Shown here: positions 26,100 to 29,269 of the stretch, one piece after another
Layout of the letters: the number at the start of each line of letters is the position of its first letter
Position numbering within the stretch: the stretch's first letter is position 1
From: Shigella phage Ag3
Sequence record: FJ373894
Strand: one strand, 5' to 3'
Length of the DNA: 64,000 bases
Notes under the pieces: model-generated
What the model was told of the DNA's origin: nothing
Seen by the model: the letters and a program-made list of their open reading frames with translations, nothing else
Databases searched by the model: none
Translations under genes and position numbers: made by a program

Positions 26100-27522
26100 T
26101 ATCCGACTCCAACAGGAACACGATGTTTTCGATGTACGCTTTTTGAATCGCATAGACTTCATCCAGCGTGTTGGCCACTTTCTTGTCAATACGGATTTCC
26201 GCAAGGCGTGGCAGGAACAATGACTTCAGCGCATCATCTGTCTTATCCTGTACGCCATTGGAGAGCACTGCGGCAATCTTGCCAATGTAGTCGCCCTGGT
26301 TCTCCCACATCCGGAGCCTCAGCTCATCTGAGATCCCTGAGACGCCAACAACAAGCAAGCCATCGGAAGTCTTACACAGCAGGGAGCCAAAGGTCTTGGC
26401 GTGTTTGCCCTTCTTGTCCGCCTCGTTGAAGCCCACAATTTCAAGGTCACACTCAACCTCCATCTTCAGCTTCAGACCTTCGGAAGAAGTCCCATCTTCC
26501 CACGGCATGTCGGCGGCCTTACAGATCGTGCCTTCTTCTTTGCGAGCCAGCGCGTCTTTGAAGTGGTCGACAGCTTCGGCAAATGAGTGAACAACACGGG
26601 TTTCCTGGACCTGTACCAGCCCATCTTCTCCGTGGAACATTTGCATGATCATGTCGAAGCGGGTTTCATACGGTAGGTCTATGCGCTCGGCGTTGAACCA
26701 CTTCTCATAAGGTACGACATCCCACACCCGGTAGATCACCTGATAACGATCTTCCAGGGGTTCGCCAGTCTGAATCACGCTGTTGAGTTTGCCGTTGCCG
26801 ACAGCACGAGGTAGGATAGAATTCGACTTGAGGTCAACAACGAGTAGTTCGCCATGGAACACACTCTCACCAATCCCCGTATCATAGATGATGTCCTTGA
26901 ACACCAGTGACAGGTTATCAACCGAACCGCCTGCGATAAGGGAACCGGAGCGAGAGCGTATCTCAGGCGCTTTGTTGTAACGGCAGATGATATTGGCGAA
27001 CATACCGTCTGACTTCAGCTGGCTGTAGACGCCGCGCTTGAAGTCCATCTTCTTCAGCAGGTCAATCGTCATGTTGTCGTAACGATGATACGGAAGGATG
27101 TTGATCAGGCGTCCAGTGCCTCCGGCGGCGTTGAATGCAGCGTTGATGCCCTTCTCAGCAATACCCGCCTTGATATCACGGTCCAGGATCATCTGGATGA
27201 GTTCGTGATACTGTGGGTCCATCTTCAGGGCAACAGAGGCCAGCAGGGCATCAGCCTTTTGACCACCGACAAGGCGCTGCGCCATCTGGTCGAGGACGTC
27301 ATAGACTTCGCTGATGTCATCAGTCTTCTCACGGACGAGCATGCGAGGATACGCGCTGAGCTTCAACTCAGTCCGATAGAACGACGTCATTGGGTCATAG
27401 ACATACTGCAGGAAGTCTACCAAGTCTGGGTTGTTCTTGAATGCTTCAGTCAGCACGGCTTTCTTCGCATTGCTGCCTTTGGTTTCGCGAAGTCGGTGGA
27501 CTGTTTCGAGGATAGGGATCAT
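26056..27522 (-). CDS. ATP-dependent DNA ligase (T4 gp30-like)
   Basis: 488 aa (T4 ligase 487); adenylation motif region SQLKSDGMF (KxDG); GGAG RBS. Confidence 0.8.
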   Translation of the reverse strand: MIPILETVHRLRETKGSNAKKAVLTEAFKNNPDLVDFLQYVYDPMTSFYRTELKLSAYPRMLVREKTDDISEVYDVLDQMAQRLVGGQKADALLASVALKMDPQYHELIQMILDRDIKAGIAEKGINAAFNAAGGTGRLINILPYHRYDNMTIDLLKKMDFKRGVYSQLKSDGMFANIICRYNKAPEIRSRSGSLIAGGSVDNLSLVFKDIIYDTGIGESVFHGELLVVDLKSNSILPRAVGNGKLNSVIQTGEPLEDRYQVIYRVWDVVPYEKWFNAERIDLPYETRFDMIMQMFHGEDGLVQVQETRVVHSFAEAVDHFKDALARKEEGTICKAADMPWEDGTSSEGLKLKMEVECDLEIVGFNEADKKGKHAKTFGSLLCKTSDGLLVVGVSGISDELRLRMWENQGDYIGKIAAVLSNGVQDKTDDALKSLFLPRLAEIRIDKKVANTLDEVYAIQKAYIENIVFLLESDNGRVYEFLVGEVLG

Positions 27523-27531
27523 GCGGTGTCT

Positions 27532-27564
27532 CCAGGGTTATATGTGCTGCTATTATAACCCTGG
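27532..27564. repeat. 11-bp perfect inverted repeat with 11-nt spacer, immediately upstream of ligase start
   Basis: CCAGGGTTATA ... TATAACCCTGG; one arm overlaps the ligase GGAG Shine-Dalgarno sequence on the mRNA. Confidence 0.6.
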
Positions 27565-27577
27565 GGACTTCAATAGA

Positions 27578-27730
27578 TTATTGGCGGGTGCGGGATCTTG
27601 CCTGGCTGATAATGATGTCGACGTTCTTTGGGTGATGTTTCTTGGGCTTCAAGGAACGCACCGCAATACAGAACACCAGAACCCCGAATCCGAATAATAT
27701 ATTCGTCAGAAAAACATCAAAGAAAGTCAT
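27578..27730 (-). CDS. small single-pass membrane peptide, paralog 1 of 3
   Basis: 50 aa MTFFDVFLTNILFGFGVLVFCIAVRSLKPKKHHPKNVDIIISQARSRTRQ; ATGA overlap with upstream paralog; motif D-I-I-x-x-A-R-x-R shared with the other two. Confidence 0.5.
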   Translation of the reverse strand: MTFFDVFLTNILFGFGVLVFCIAVRSLKPKKHHPKNVDIIISQARSRTRQ

Positions 27731-27894
27731 TTCCGTCTTCCTCGAGCTTTGCTCACTATGTGGTCGATGCTTTCCTTCCGAAATTTCGATTTCAGAACAC
27801 CGATAGCCCCAGATGCGTGGAGTGCTATGGCGATCGCCACTAATATGGCCGGAGAAGCCCCGACCAGACCATTCAGAAAGTGTTCTAGCGTCAT
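27727..27894 (-). CDS. small single-pass membrane peptide, paralog 2 of 3
   Basis: 55 aa MTLEHFLNGLVGASPAILVAIAIALHASGAIGVLKSKFRKESIDHIVSKARGRRK; not in ORF track (under 60 aa); ATGA overlaps at both ends. Confidence 0.5.
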   Translation of the reverse strand: MTLEHFLNGLVGASPAILVAIAIALHASGAIGVLKSKFRKESIDHIVSKARGRRK

Positions 27895-28079
27895 TTGCGT
27901 CTCTTCCTGGCATTGTGAACGATGAGGTCAGTATGTGGAAGTCGGTCCAATTCCCTTCGGCGCTTGCGTTCCTTACGCCATTCATGGAATTTTTCGTCTA
28001 ACATTTCTGTGTTGATTATCGTTGCAATGATGCCAAATGCTCCAACAAAGGTCAAGATCATTTTGATCGAGTCCATCAT
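27891..28079 (-). CDS. small single-pass membrane peptide, paralog 3 of 3
   Basis: 62 aa from ATG 28079: MMDSIKMILTFVGAFGIIATIINTEML...HTDLIVHNARKRRK; ATGA overlap with upstream 180-aa gene. Confidence 0.5.
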   Translation of the reverse strand: MMDSIKMILTFVGAFGIIATIINTEMLDEKFHEWRKERKRRRELDRLPHTDLIVHNARKRRK

Positions 28080-28618
28080 GAACCCTCCGCCCAAACAAAG
28101 CCGTATTTGTTCAGTAGATCCACAGTTTCACCACGGGCGCGAGCCACGATGGATTCTACTGTTTCTTCCACCTCGAGTGGCGGGCAACCAGCCTTTTCGT
28201 ACGTGTTAAGCAAGAGAGCAAGTTCTTTTACGAACCCCTTTTGTTCCTCTCTTCCAAAGAACCACATCCGCAGATCGTCACGTTCCCCGTGCTTGTTCAG
28301 AGAAGCCATATTCGCGTACACGTAATCGTTTTTCTGAACAACGCCATTTATCTCCGGCCAATGCAACCCAGTCATCGCATAATTGAAGAATTCCGAAGGG
28401 GTGACTTCATCCGACAAATAATACAAACGGAAGTCACCGCTGGGACCATGTTTGCAAGTTCTATCCAGCATTATTGTGTGGATGTCCACGCGATTGCGGT
28501 AAGATATGAATTTCCGTTTTCTTCTACGTAAAAATTTCAGAGTAAAGTGGATTGTGCCGATCGTTACCATGGCTTGTATGGTGTACGCGAGGATGTCGTA
28601 TTTGTCAAGAATGATCAT
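28076..28618 (-). CDS. membrane-anchored protein (N-terminal TM helix plus globular domain)
   Basis: 180 aa; TM AYTIQAMVTIGTIHFTLKFL then RRRKRK; GGGGGA RBS; first gene of a four-gene translationally coupled chain. Confidence 0.45.
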   Translation of the reverse strand: MIILDKYDILAYTIQAMVTIGTIHFTLKFLRRRKRKFISYRNRVDIHTIMLDRTCKHGPSGDFRLYYLSDEVTPSEFFNYAMTGLHWPEINGVVQKNDYVYANMASLNKHGERDDLRMWFFGREEQKGFVKELALLLNTYEKAGCPPLEVEETVESIVARARGETVDLLNKYGFVWAEGS

Positions 28619-28629
28619 AAGATCCCCCG

Positions 28630-28655
28630 AAATGAATGAGGGGCTTTCGCCCCTC
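28630..28655 (-). terminator. terminator-like hairpin downstream of 28661..29269
   Basis: GAGGGGC-GAAA-GCCCCTC (GNRA loop) on the minus strand followed by ATTCATTTC. Confidence 0.45.
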
Positions 28656-28660
28656 CAATG

Positions 28661-29269
28661 TTATTTGCTCAGGCTGGCGAGGTAGTTGTCAGCTTCGATA
28701 GACGACGGGCTGTTAGCTGAGTAGCTCGAATCAGCGATTTCGGTTTCGCGCAGGATAGCATCAATATCGATGGTGGTCATGCCAGCGGCATAATCGATAT
28801 CTTCAGGGAGCACCAGACCCAGGTCGTTCGTCTCTTTTTGAACACGAACCAGCTCGAGGTTGGACTTCACTTCGTCCAGTTTGTCACCCAGCTGGATGAT
28901 CGCACCGTTCAGTTTGTCGCTGCTTGCTTCGATGTCCTTCACCTGAGCCAACAGGGCTTCGCCAATACGACGGCGATGCAGGACAATCAGGGCGTCGGCG
29001 CGGGTTGGCGTGACACCGCGAGCGATGGCGTCCTTCAGAACCTGCTCGCGCTTGGCGGCTTCGCCCAGGTTCTGTTCTGCGGTCTTCTTCAGCTTGACGC
29101 CGTTGCGAACGTTGGCGACACGGGCTTCTTCCAGGCGGCGGATTTCATCAGACAGCTTGCGAGCAGCCAGGTTCAGGCGCTTTTCGGTGCCGGTCAGTTT
29201 GTCCAGGCCTGTAGTGACGTTGGCTTCAACAGTGGTGAAGATGCGTTTCAGTAAATTTTTCAGTGACAT
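28661..29269 (-). CDS. coiled-coil protein, possible PspA/IM30-like
   Basis: 202 aa; N-terminus NLLKRIFTTVEANVTTGLDKL and extended heptad-like coiled coil resemble PspA ([22 protein letters not shown]) in pattern only. Confidence 0.3.
   Translation of the reverse strand: MSLKNLLKRIFTTVEANVTTGLDKLTGTEKRLNLAARKLSDEIRRLEEARVANVRNGVKLKKTAEQNLGEAAKREQVLKDAIARGVTPTRADALIVLHRRRIGEALLAQVKDIEASSDKLNGAIIQLGDKLDEVKSNLELVRVQKETNDLGLVLPEDIDYAAGMTTIDIDAILRETEIADSSYSANSPSSIEADNYLASLSK

What the first reader, a model, noticed from the sequence alone, without database searches (positions are those of the whole stretch)
27578..28618. Three tandem, translationally coupled paralogous single-pass membrane peptides with a shared C-terminal basic motif
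Reading the minus strand reveals a chain of four genes joined by ATGA start/stop overlaps: a 180-aa membrane-anchored protein (28076..28618), then peptides of 62, 55 and 50 aa. Each peptide is one TM helix plus a C-terminal tail containing D-[HIL]-I-[VI]-x-x-A-R-x-R-[RT]-[KRQ] (HTDLIVHNARKRRK, SIDHIVSKARGRRK, VDIIISQARSRTRQ). The middle paralog is missing from the ORF track and lies in a different frame from the spurious extended ORF 27578..27985. Tandem triplication of a tiny membrane protein suggests selection on dosage or diversification, as in superinfection exclusion, lysis timing or membrane-targeted host takeover.
Basis: seen in the sequence. Interest (0 to 1): 0.6.

Follow-up and report, generated by a model that had tools for sequence, protein, structure and literature searches.

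The report
Membrane anchors beside a phage PspA gene
Three tiny membrane peptides in this Salmonella-type phage, plus the 180-residue protein before them, form one family that shares a short conserved tail helix and always follows a phage copy of the membrane-repair protein PspA, so they are probably its membrane docking sites.

Summary
On the minus strand, four genes (180, 62, 55 and 50 aa) are chained by ATGA stop/start overlaps. The motif D-x-I-[VI]-x-x-A-R-x-R occurs exactly three times in the six-frame translation of the window, always at the peptide C-termini (0.005 expected).

- The 180-aa protein carries the same helix (ESIVARARG). It contains two of the four invariant or near-invariant residues of its family.
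- The gene directly upstream is a PspA/IM30 (ESCRT-III superfamily) homologue.
- The layout PspA-like, then 1-2 large anchors, then 0-3 small anchors, then DNA ligase recurs across Ackermannviridae isolates and metagenomic contigs. T4-like phages have soluble proteins with a related C-terminal module after their PspA-like gene (e.6).

The three genes share no DNA similarity, so this is not a recent triplication. Copy number changes by recombination at the motif, seen as chimeras, relics and pseudogenes.

Best reading: these are N-out/C-in membrane anchors that display a cytoplasmic docking helix for the phage PspA-like protein, analogous to PspB/PspC or LiaI but unrelated in sequence. The binding itself is inferred, not shown. 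The genes are already annotated as "putative membrane protein"; the shared motif and the PspA link appear undescribed.

The parts
28661..29269 (-). PspA/IM30-like (ESCRT-III superfamily) gene, 202 aa; phrog_1203; called 'e.6-like' in related records
   Evidence: Pfam PF04012 scores 38.1 bits against a gathering score of 33.9, covering residues 5-147. A family profile hits Vipp1/PspA solved structures colinearly, 1-141 against 1-142, E about 6e-5. Seven of 15 homologues hit PF04012 on their own.
28638..28655 (-). Terminator-like hairpin GAGGGGC-GAAA-GCCCCTC followed by ATTCATTT, between the PspA-like gene and the 180-aa gene
   Evidence: Consensus scan. Fold of -19.7 kcal/mol, z = -2.7. Function not tested.
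28076..28618 (-). 180-aa 'large anchor' (phrog_11433): N-terminal TM helix, cytoplasmic alpha/beta domain, linker, motif helix, then KYGFVW tail
   Evidence: ORF. AlphaFold2 mean pLDDT 78.9, with TM helix 7-33, domain 45-145 at pLDDT about 90, and motif helix 154-161 at pLDDT 57-68. The family has 28 clusters among 1.8 billion representatives.
28130..28156 (-). Motif E-S-I-V-A-R-A-R-G of the 180-aa protein (residues 155-163)
   Evidence: I157 is invariant and A161 nearly invariant across 22 distant family members. hhalign aligns VESIVARARGE with the peptides' VDxIVxxARSR, P = 4e-4.
27891..28079 (-). Peptide 1, 62 aa (phrog_25181): TM helix, basic helix, motif helix
   Evidence: Orthologues in SKML-39, P46FS4, Gloob (as a chimera) and EspM4VN.
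27727..27894 (-). Peptide 2, 55 aa (phrog_34926)
   Evidence: Found in only 3 isolate phages. The substitution pattern favours this frame.
27578..27730 (-). Peptide 3, 50 aa (phrog_33430), last gene of the chain
   Evidence: Homologues 76-80% identical occur in Klebsiella Taipeivirus phages. In the three whose sequence I read (Magnus, Menlow, MDA2066) an in-frame stop interrupts the gene.
27900..27929 (-). Motif DLIVHNARKR of peptide 1; its R-K-R codons (AGGAAGAG) double as the ribosome-binding site of peptide 2
27736..27765 (-). Motif DHIVSKARGR of peptide 2; its R-G-R codons (GAGGAAGA) double as the ribosome-binding site of peptide 3
27590..27619 (-). Motif DIIISQARSR of peptide 3. No downstream coupling and no SD-like run, yet the motif is kept.
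27532..27564 (-). Perfect 11-bp stem-loop (CCAGGGTTATA...TATAACCCTGG) between the peptide 3 stop and the DNA ligase ribosome-binding site; marks the 3' boundary of the module
   Evidence: Fold of -21.4 kcal/mol, z = -4.2. Also present in phages whose module has been deleted.

Best explanation
The three peptides and the 180-aa protein form one family of N-out/C-in inner-membrane proteins. Each exposes a short basic amphipathic helix, [DE]-x-I-[VI]-x-x-A-[RK]-x-R, in the cytoplasm. They form an operon-like module with the upstream phage PspA/IM30 (ESCRT-III-like) gene.

I propose that the helix is the docking site that recruits or nucleates the phage PspA-like polymer on the inner membrane. It may bind the polymer's conserved acidic C-terminal tail, ...IEADNYLASLSK. 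The polymer would then keep the membrane sealed and energised during infection, against premature holin triggering, abortive-infection pores or superinfection damage. This resembles PspB/PspC with PspA, or LiaI with LiaH, but there is no sequence relationship.

The small peptides are minimal anchors: a TM segment plus the helix. Their TM segments are free to vary. Their number changes by recombination within the motif-coding DNA.

**Shown here:** the genes, the predicted topology, motif conservation, synteny, and joint loss and decay.

**Inferred:** binding to the PspA-like protein, and the physiological role.
For: **Upstream gene.** It matches PspA_IM30 above Pfam's threshold and hits Vipp1/PspA structures.

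**Fixed synteny.** The order PspA-like, 1-2 large anchors, 0-3 small anchors, DNA ligase is seen in Agtrevirus, Kuttervirus Vi01, Taipeivirus May, CRW-SP2 and Bue1. It also holds in four metagenomic contigs that reach the ligase (L023, L024, L031, L033). Two shorter contigs (L034, L035) are consistent as far as they go.

**Co-occurrence.** The PspA-like gene at 60% identity or more is in 84 phage records. The 180-aa family is in 85.

**Joint loss.** SW16-7, Magnus and Menlow lack both the PspA-like gene and the large anchor. They keep only relics or stop-interrupted copies of the peptides.

**Motif is the most conserved part.** I157 and A161 in the large family and I53, A57 and R60 in 33 small peptides are invariant or nearly so, while the TM segments are unrelated. 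The Ala and Arg codons differ between paralogues, so the constraint is on the protein.

**Exposed position.** In the AlphaFold2 model the motif is a short helix on a low-confidence linker, not packed on the domain. This is typical of a docking element.

**Distant phages.** In Straboviridae (T4-like) and distant Ackermannviridae genera, the genes just after the PspA-like gene (e.6) end in a related module, for example VESIIDEARKRVLGDKYSPEIMYT. Serratia phage 92A1 has a 41-aa protein that consists of the module alone. In total 9 of 27 downstream genes carry the loose motif, against 0 of 25 upstream genes and 3 of 168 window ORFs.

**Precedent.** PspA homologues are recruited by small membrane proteins encoded beside them, such as LiaI for LiaH and PspB/C for PspA (PMC9239133).
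Against: - No direct test of binding was possible. The tools offer no multimer prediction and no experiment.
- The peptides have no similarity to PspB, PspC or any Pfam family.
- The loose motif for distant phages was defined after I had seen the data. One of its 9 hits, in Pm5461, lies inside a TM segment and is spurious. AS-zj and PSTCR6 do not match it.
- Synteny shows only a functional link, not the direction or the mechanism.
- Klebsiella phage MDA2066 keeps the PspA-like gene and the large anchor, but its small peptides are truncated. L034 has only a 39-aa TM-only peptide. So the small peptides are dispensable.
- The co-occurrence figure compares totals, not per-genome intersections.
Confidence: 0.5

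Rival explanations
1. The shared helix makes the four membrane proteins bind one another, with the small ones capping or regulating the 180-aa protein. They would form a membrane complex with its own activity, such as a channel or a regulator. The PspA-like protein would be co-encoded only to buffer the membrane stress this complex causes.
For: All four proteins carry the same helix and are translationally coupled, which favours stoichiometric co-assembly. The motif helix of the 180-aa protein is not packed on its own domain.
Against: T4-like phages have soluble, TM-less proteins with the related module after their PspA-like gene, including a 41-aa protein that is the module alone. This points to a soluble common partner rather than a membrane complex. 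Many phages have one large anchor and no small peptide.
Confidence: 0.2
2. The helix binds a host protein rather than the phage PspA-like protein. Candidates are host PspA or PspF, a protease such as FtsH, or a membrane-acting defence effector. The array would be a host-takeover or anti-defence set, with variable TM segments aimed at different host membrane partners.
For: The TM segments are highly diverse and are swapped between phages. Copy number turns over quickly, which fits an arms race. PMC9409062 proposed an anti-abortive-infection role for the phage PspA-like gene.
Against: The motif stays the same in phages of Salmonella, Klebsiella, Enterobacter and Shigella, and relaxed versions occur in Erwinia and Serratia phages. 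The only partner that always travels with it is the phage PspA-like gene. No PADLOC or anti-defence test was run.
Confidence: 0.17
3. The peptides act on their own as superinfection-exclusion or lysis-timing factors (holin or antiholin-like), and were amplified for dosage.
For: They are small single-pass proteins with charged C-tails, an architecture shared by some holins and exclusion proteins. In some T4-like phages the PspA-like gene lies near the endolysin.
Against: Pfam, PHROGs and NCBIfam give no hit to holin, antiholin, Imm or Sp families. In Ackermannviridae the genes sit among replication genes (helicase, ligase, helicase loader), not in a lysis cassette. The paralogues share no DNA similarity, so this is not a recent dosage amplification.
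Confidence: 0.1
4. The motif reflects nucleotide-level constraint, because the ribosome-binding sites for coupled translation lie in the last codons. Alternatively the small ORFs are decaying relics with no function.
For: The R-[KG]-R codons of peptides 1 and 2 are the SD-like runs for the next gene. Across phages, internal peptides end in R/K-rich tails and terminal ones in SR-type tails. Interrupted copies exist in Klebsiella phages.
Against: Peptide 3 and the 180-aa protein keep I-[VI]-x-x-A-R with no downstream start nearby. The invariant I, A and R use different codons in each paralogue. pN/pS is well below 1 only in the coding frame. The motif survives at 25-30% overall identity.
Confidence: 0.03

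Closest known systems
E. coli/Yersinia PspA with PspB and PspC (pspABC operon)
   Same: A PspA-family gene is followed directly by small inner-membrane proteins with cytoplasmic tails. PspB is 74 aa with one N-terminal TM. PspB and PspC control where and when PspA acts at the membrane (PMC9239133).
   Different: No sequence similarity. The profile of 33 peptides scores about 0 bits against E. coli PspB and PspC, and there are no PspB or PspC Pfam hits. The phage module has no PspF-type regulator, is encoded by a virulent phage, and has a variable number of anchors sharing one motif.
Bacillus subtilis LiaI-LiaH
   Same: A small membrane protein encoded beside a PspA homologue serves as its membrane anchor (PMC9239133).
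   Different: LiaI is unrelated in sequence to these peptides as far as Pfam shows. It is a single gene, not an array, and it is bacterial and stress-induced.
Phage PspA homologue phrog_1203 (T4-type 'e.6'; Kuttervirus SeF3a gp125)
   Same: It is the same gene family as the window's 202-aa protein. PMC9409062 recognised it as a PspA homologue and proposed an anti-abortive-infection role.
   Different: That paper, read by term search only, describes gp125 without mentioning the downstream membrane genes or a shared motif. It states the gene is present in only some Kuttervirus genomes. The present analysis adds the partner family.
PHROG families 11433, 25181, 34926, 33430 and GenBank 'putative membrane protein' ORF133-136 of phage P46FS4
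   Same: These are the same proteins, already called as genes.
   Different: They are filed as four unrelated families of unknown function or generic 'membrane protein'. The shared helix and the PspA link are not recorded there.
ESCRT-III adaptors that nucleate filaments through short helices
   Same: By analogy only: a short helix on a membrane-bound adaptor engages an ESCRT-III-type subunit. The phage PspA-like family has a conserved acidic C-terminal motif with an invariant Tyr.
   Different: This rests on general knowledge, not on a test made here. There is no homology.

Membership tests
PspA/IM30/Vipp1 (ESCRT-III superfamily), for the upstream 202-aa gene | Match to Pfam PF04012 above the gathering score | tested here: met
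   38.1 bits against 33.9, E = 1.6e-9, residues 5-147 on profile positions 1-144. Seven of 15 homologues also match at E of 0.01 or better.
PspA/IM30/Vipp1 (ESCRT-III superfamily), for the upstream 202-aa gene | Colinear similarity to solved PspA/Vipp1 structures starting at the N-terminal helix | tested here: met
   The eight best PDB hits of the family profile are all Vipp1/PspA/sll0617, aligned 1-141 to 1-142, E from 6e-5 to 4e-3. The direct alignment to E. coli PspA is weak, P = 0.003 over the first 52 residues.
PspA/IM30/Vipp1 (ESCRT-III superfamily), for the upstream 202-aa gene | Helical-hairpin ESCRT-III fold and polymer formation | not tested
Polymerisation needs an experiment.
PspB (PF06667) / PspC (PF04024) | Sequence match to the family profile or to E. 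coli PspB or PspC | tested here: not met
   No Pfam hit at E of 1 or better. hmmsearch of the 33-peptide profile against E. coli K-12 PspB and PspC gives about 0-1 bits, aligning TM residues only.
PspB/PspC/LiaI-type PspA membrane partner (functional class) | Small inner-membrane protein encoded directly beside a PspA-family gene | tested here: met
   The synteny holds in every PspA-containing locus inspected.
PspB/PspC/LiaI-type PspA membrane partner (functional class) | Physical binding to the PspA-family protein | not testable with these tools
   No multimer prediction or experiment is available.
phrog_11433 large-anchor family, with the small peptides as minimal relatives | N-terminal TM plus a C-terminal [DE]-x-I-[VI]-x-x-A-[RK] helix | tested here: met
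   The 180-aa protein matches phrog_11433 at 1.9e-83. The helix is shared with the peptides (hhalign P = 4e-4; blastp-short of peptide 2 against the 180-aa protein, E = 0.004). Homology beyond the about 12-residue helix cannot be shown.
Holin, antiholin or superinfection-exclusion proteins (T4 T, RI, Imm, Sp) | Profile match, or a position in a lysis cassette | tested here: not met
   No such family appears in Pfam, PHROGs or NCBIfam. The neighbours are replication genes.
PH-like / bacterial PH domain, for the cytoplasmic domain of the 180-aa protein | Structural match to PH-like folds | tested here: inconclusive

The most novel reading that the evidence does not exclude
Large virulent phages of enterobacteria (Ackermannviridae and T4-like Straboviridae) encode their own ESCRT-III-type membrane-repair system. 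It has two parts. One is a PspA-like polymer. The other is a fast-evolving set of adaptors that all present one conserved docking helix. In Ackermannviridae the adaptors are membrane-anchored and range from 180-aa proteins to minimal 50-aa 'TM plus helix' peptides. Their interchangeable TM segments would direct the polymer to different membrane sites or threats. The array grows and shrinks by recombination within the helix-coding DNA.
Probability: 0.35. Interest if true: 0.75.

Novelty: new variant of a known kind. Interest (0 to 1): 0.55.

Why it matters
**For PspA biology.** How PspA/Vipp1-type proteins are targeted to membranes, and what a phage gains from carrying its own copy, are open questions. 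This module offers a compact test system. It has one PspA-like gene and up to four natural anchors that share a helix of about 10 residues with three invariant positions.

**If the helix is the docking site.**
- It defines a new short recruitment motif for a bacterial-type ESCRT-III protein.
- It links four PHROG families and the T4-type e.6 neighbourhood into one system.
- It points to a phage function, membrane or PMF protection against premature lysis or abortive infection, that may matter when choosing therapeutic Ackermannviridae phages. Closely related isolates differ in having the module or not.

**For annotation.** The region shows how small genes hidden under a longer out-of-frame ORF can be recovered from a repeated motif.

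Tried and rejected
- **Recent tandem triplication.** Rejected. blastn-short finds nothing beyond chance 7-9-mers among the three genes. blastp finds only the tail.
- **Motif as a by-product of the Shine-Dalgarno sequences.** Rejected as the main cause, though the basic residues after the motif are partly dual-coded.
- **Membership in PspB or PspC.** Tested and not met. By eye, the PspC C-terminus LRSRFRQL resembles ARSRTRQ, but this is not significant.
- **Fold of the 180-aa cytoplasmic domain.** Only weak PH-like matches. BFVD gave only orthologues. The afdb50 library was unavailable.
- **NCBIfam.** Nothing meaningful.
- **Loci for distant large-anchor relatives in IMG/VR.** Three single-protein scans found nothing. 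Exact-protein look-ups in assemblies worked instead.
- **Literature.** No paper links T4 e.6 with PspA. None describes partners of phage PspA. Only PMC9409062 mentions the phage PspA homologue.
- **Pseudo-complex prediction.** I considered translating through the PspA-like stop codon into the in-frame 180-aa gene. I dropped it because the tool returns no contact or PAE data, so the result could not be read.
- **Covariation.** PspA-like tails ending Y-I-x-x-L go with F-[IV]-x-x-C motifs in JS10, AS-zj and Miller. Tails ending Y-[LM]-... go with I-[IV]-x-x-A elsewhere. This may reflect a single phylogenetic split, so I do not use it as evidence.
Full report
**What the window is.** The region 27300-28900 is 98% identical to the Agtrevirus phages Salmonella phage P46FS4 and SKML-39 (Ackermannviridae). 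In P46FS4 the four genes of the finding are annotated as ORF133-136, 'putative membrane protein'. They lie between an 'e.6-like' hypothetical protein and the DNA ligase.

**Checking the observation.** The minus strand carries these genes:
- a 180-aa gene at 28618..28076
- a 62-aa gene at 28079..27891
- a 55-aa gene at 27894..27727
- a 50-aa gene at 27730..27578

Every junction is an ATGA overlap. A purine-rich ribosome-binding run sits in the last codons of the upstream gene.

The motif D.I[VI]..AR.R occurs three times in the six-frame translation of the whole 64-kb window. All three are at the peptide C-termini, against 0.005 expected.

Each protein has one hydrophobic segment, a net-negative N-flank and a strongly basic C-side. 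This predicts N-out/C-in. AlphaFold2, run with 33 homologues, models the 62-aa peptide as a TM helix, a basic helix and a motif helix.

The 55-aa gene is in a different frame from the 135-aa ORF 27578..27985. Against two relatives, its pN/pS is 0.17-0.24 in its own frame and about 1.7 in the other frames. Only 11 substitutions underlie this.

**Not a recent triplication.** The three genes have no significant DNA similarity. At protein level only the tail aligns. Each type has its own distribution:
- Peptide 2 is found in only three isolates.
- Peptide 1 is found in five phages, across seven records.
- Peptide 3 is found in 30 records, including 76-80% identical copies in Klebsiella Taipeivirus phages.

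**The 180-aa protein belongs to the same family.**
- It carries E-S-I-V-A-R-A-R-G about 20 residues from its end.
- Among 22 members down to 18% identity, the invariant columns are M1, P88, I157 and G173, and A161 is nearly invariant. I157 and A161 lie in the motif.
- In 33 distinct small peptides the only invariant columns are the corresponding I, A and R.
- hhalign aligns the two motifs at P = 4e-4.
- The Ala and Arg codons differ among paralogues, so the constraint is on the protein.
- The AlphaFold2 model (pLDDT 78.9) shows a TM helix and a well-predicted alpha/beta domain. The motif is a short helix on a low-confidence linker.

**The upstream gene is a PspA homologue.**
- The 202-aa protein at 29269..28661 matches Pfam PspA_IM30 above the gathering score.
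- A profile of 15 phage homologues hits Vipp1/PspA structures colinearly from residue 1.
- The family is phrog_1203, called 'e.6' in T4-type annotations.
- PMC9409062 had recognised the Kuttervirus copy as a PspA homologue and suggested an anti-abortive-infection role. In the passages I retrieved by term search, it says nothing about the downstream genes.
- The family also has a conserved acidic C-terminal motif with an invariant Tyr, IEADNYLASLSK in the window.

**A conserved module with variable copy number.** Wherever I looked in Ackermannviridae-type genomes the order is PspA-like, large anchor(s), small anchor(s), DNA ligase.

| Phage or contig | Large anchors | Small motif peptides |
|---|---|---|
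| Window, P46FS4, pSal-SNUABM-02 | 1 | 3 |
| SKML-39 | 1 | 3 (all three types found by tblastn; locus not read) |
| EspM4VN, MK-13 | 1 | 2 |
| Gloob | 1 | 1 (chimera) |
| ZQ1 | 1 | 0 (out-of-frame relic) |
| Vi01, SeF3a, May, CRW-SP2 | 1 | 1 |
| Contig L023 | 2 | 2 |
| Contig L024 | 2 | 3 |
| Contig L031 | 2 | 2 |
| Contig L033 | 1 | 2 |
| Contig L034 | 1 | 0 (39-aa TM-only ORF without motif) |
| Contig L035 | 1 | 1 |
| Erwinia phage Bue1 | 1 TM protein of similar size with a degenerate motif, plus a 248-aa motif protein | 1 |

- In the phage collection, the PspA-like gene at 60% identity or more occurs in 84 records and the large anchor in 85.
- SW16-7, Magnus and Menlow lack both genes. They keep relics of the peptide 3' ends or stop-interrupted peptide 3 copies next to the ligase.
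- Chimeras whose junction lies inside the motif show that the motif-coding DNA acts as a recombination point. One joins the peptide 1 N-terminus to the peptide 3 tail (Gloob, P0024). The other joins the peptide 2 N-terminus to the peptide 3 tail (P0054).
- The TM segment of the window's 180-aa protein matches EspM4VN's. The rest of the protein matches P46FS4. This is a module swap.

**Distant phages.**
- In Straboviridae, the genes just after the PspA-like gene end in a related module. Examples are Serratia 4S and 92A1 (...VESIIDEARKRVLGDKYSPEIMYT), Citrobacter Miller (...KFIHSCKKNVMEKYDPSLSYT) and JS10 (...FIKEC[RK]).
- These proteins have no TM segment. Phage 92A1 has a 41-aa protein that is the module alone.
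- A loose motif, [ILVF][ILV]..[AC][RK] within the last 40 residues, is present in 9 of 27 downstream genes. It is present in 0 of 25 upstream genes and 3 of 168 window ORFs, two of which are the module's own.
- The pattern was defined after seeing the data, and one of the hits is spurious. The enrichment is therefore indicative, not exact.

**Interpretation.** The conserved element is a short, exposed, basic amphipathic helix held at the cytoplasmic face of the inner membrane. The only component that always travels with it, and is lost with it, is the phage PspA-like gene. PspA homologues in bacteria are recruited by small membrane proteins encoded beside them, such as PspB/C and LiaI (PMC9239133). 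I therefore propose that the peptides and the 180-aa protein are membrane anchors or nucleators for the phage PspA-like polymer.

- The peptides are not PspB or PspC homologues.
- Binding is inferred, not shown.
- The rival readings cannot be excluded with these tools. They are self-association of the anchors, a host target, and a direct role in exclusion or lysis.
- The small peptides are dispensable in some lineages. This fits an accessory role with fast turnover.

**Signals.**
- A terminator-like hairpin follows the PspA-like gene. It could lower expression of the anchors relative to PspA.
- A stable 11-bp hairpin lies between peptide 3 and the ligase ribosome-binding site. It is kept even where the module is deleted.
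- Neither signal was tested.

**Verdict.** The better-supported reading is a phage PspA-like module with a variable family of membrane anchors that share one docking helix. This is a new variant of a known kind, of moderate interest, and directly testable.

Noticed in passing
window 27532..27564 (- strand): A perfect 11-bp stem-loop (CCAGGGTTATA / TATAACCCTGG, -21.4 kcal/mol, z = -4.2) that contains TATAAT. It lies just upstream of the DNA ligase ribosome-binding site. It is conserved even in phages that have lost the whole module (SW16-7, ZQ1), and Klebsiella phages have a variant. It may be an RNA-processing, regulatory or promoter element.
   Followed up: partly
window 28638..28655 (- strand): A terminator-like hairpin with a GAAA loop directly after the PspA-like gene. 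It might set the ratio of PspA-like protein to anchors.
   Followed up: partly
window 28499..28618 (first ~40 codons of the 180-aa gene): The N-terminal TM segment is the EspM4VN type (95% identity over the full length). Residues 41-180 are 98% identical to P46FS4, whose own TM segment is unrelated. This is a recombinational swap of the TM module within one gene.
   Followed up: partly
window 28661..28700 (C-terminus of the PspA-like gene): A conserved acidic C-terminal motif [DE]-phi-[DE]-x-Y-phi-x-x-L with an invariant Tyr, found across Ackermannviridae and Straboviridae homologues. It is a candidate partner for the basic anchor helix.
   Followed up: partly
L008 (Klebsiella phage Magnus) 3014..3163; L029 (Menlow); L030 (MDA2066): Peptide 3 homologues, 80% identical to the window's copy, are interrupted by the same in-frame TGA just before the motif (KKRR*KNVDNIVSQAISRTRQ*). 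MDA2066 has a second stop inside the motif. A relic of the peptide 1 3' end lies upstream in Magnus and Menlow. The 33-aa TM-only remainder is annotated as a gene in Magnus.
   Followed up: yes
L025 (Serratia phage 92A1) 3857..3982: A 41-aa TM-less protein that consists only of the C-terminal module (..VEQVLHKARLRVLNEKYNPDIMYTVIE). It sits among paralogous 179-189-aa proteins downstream of the PspA-like gene.
   Followed up: partly
window 27891..27910 and 27727..27746; related loci L002, L003, L005, L024, L031, L033: A position-dependent tail. Peptides followed by another coupled gene end in R/K-rich tails whose codons form the next gene's Shine-Dalgarno run (for example ARKRRK, ARGRRK). The last peptide of an array usually ends in ARSR(T)RQ or similar. 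This is an example of dual coding.
   Followed up: partly
L007 (Salmonella phage SW16-7) 5213..5908: A putative homing endonuclease gene is inserted between the ligase-downstream genes and the helicase loader in this module-less Agtrevirus. The region appears to be a hotspot of gene gain and loss.
   Followed up: no
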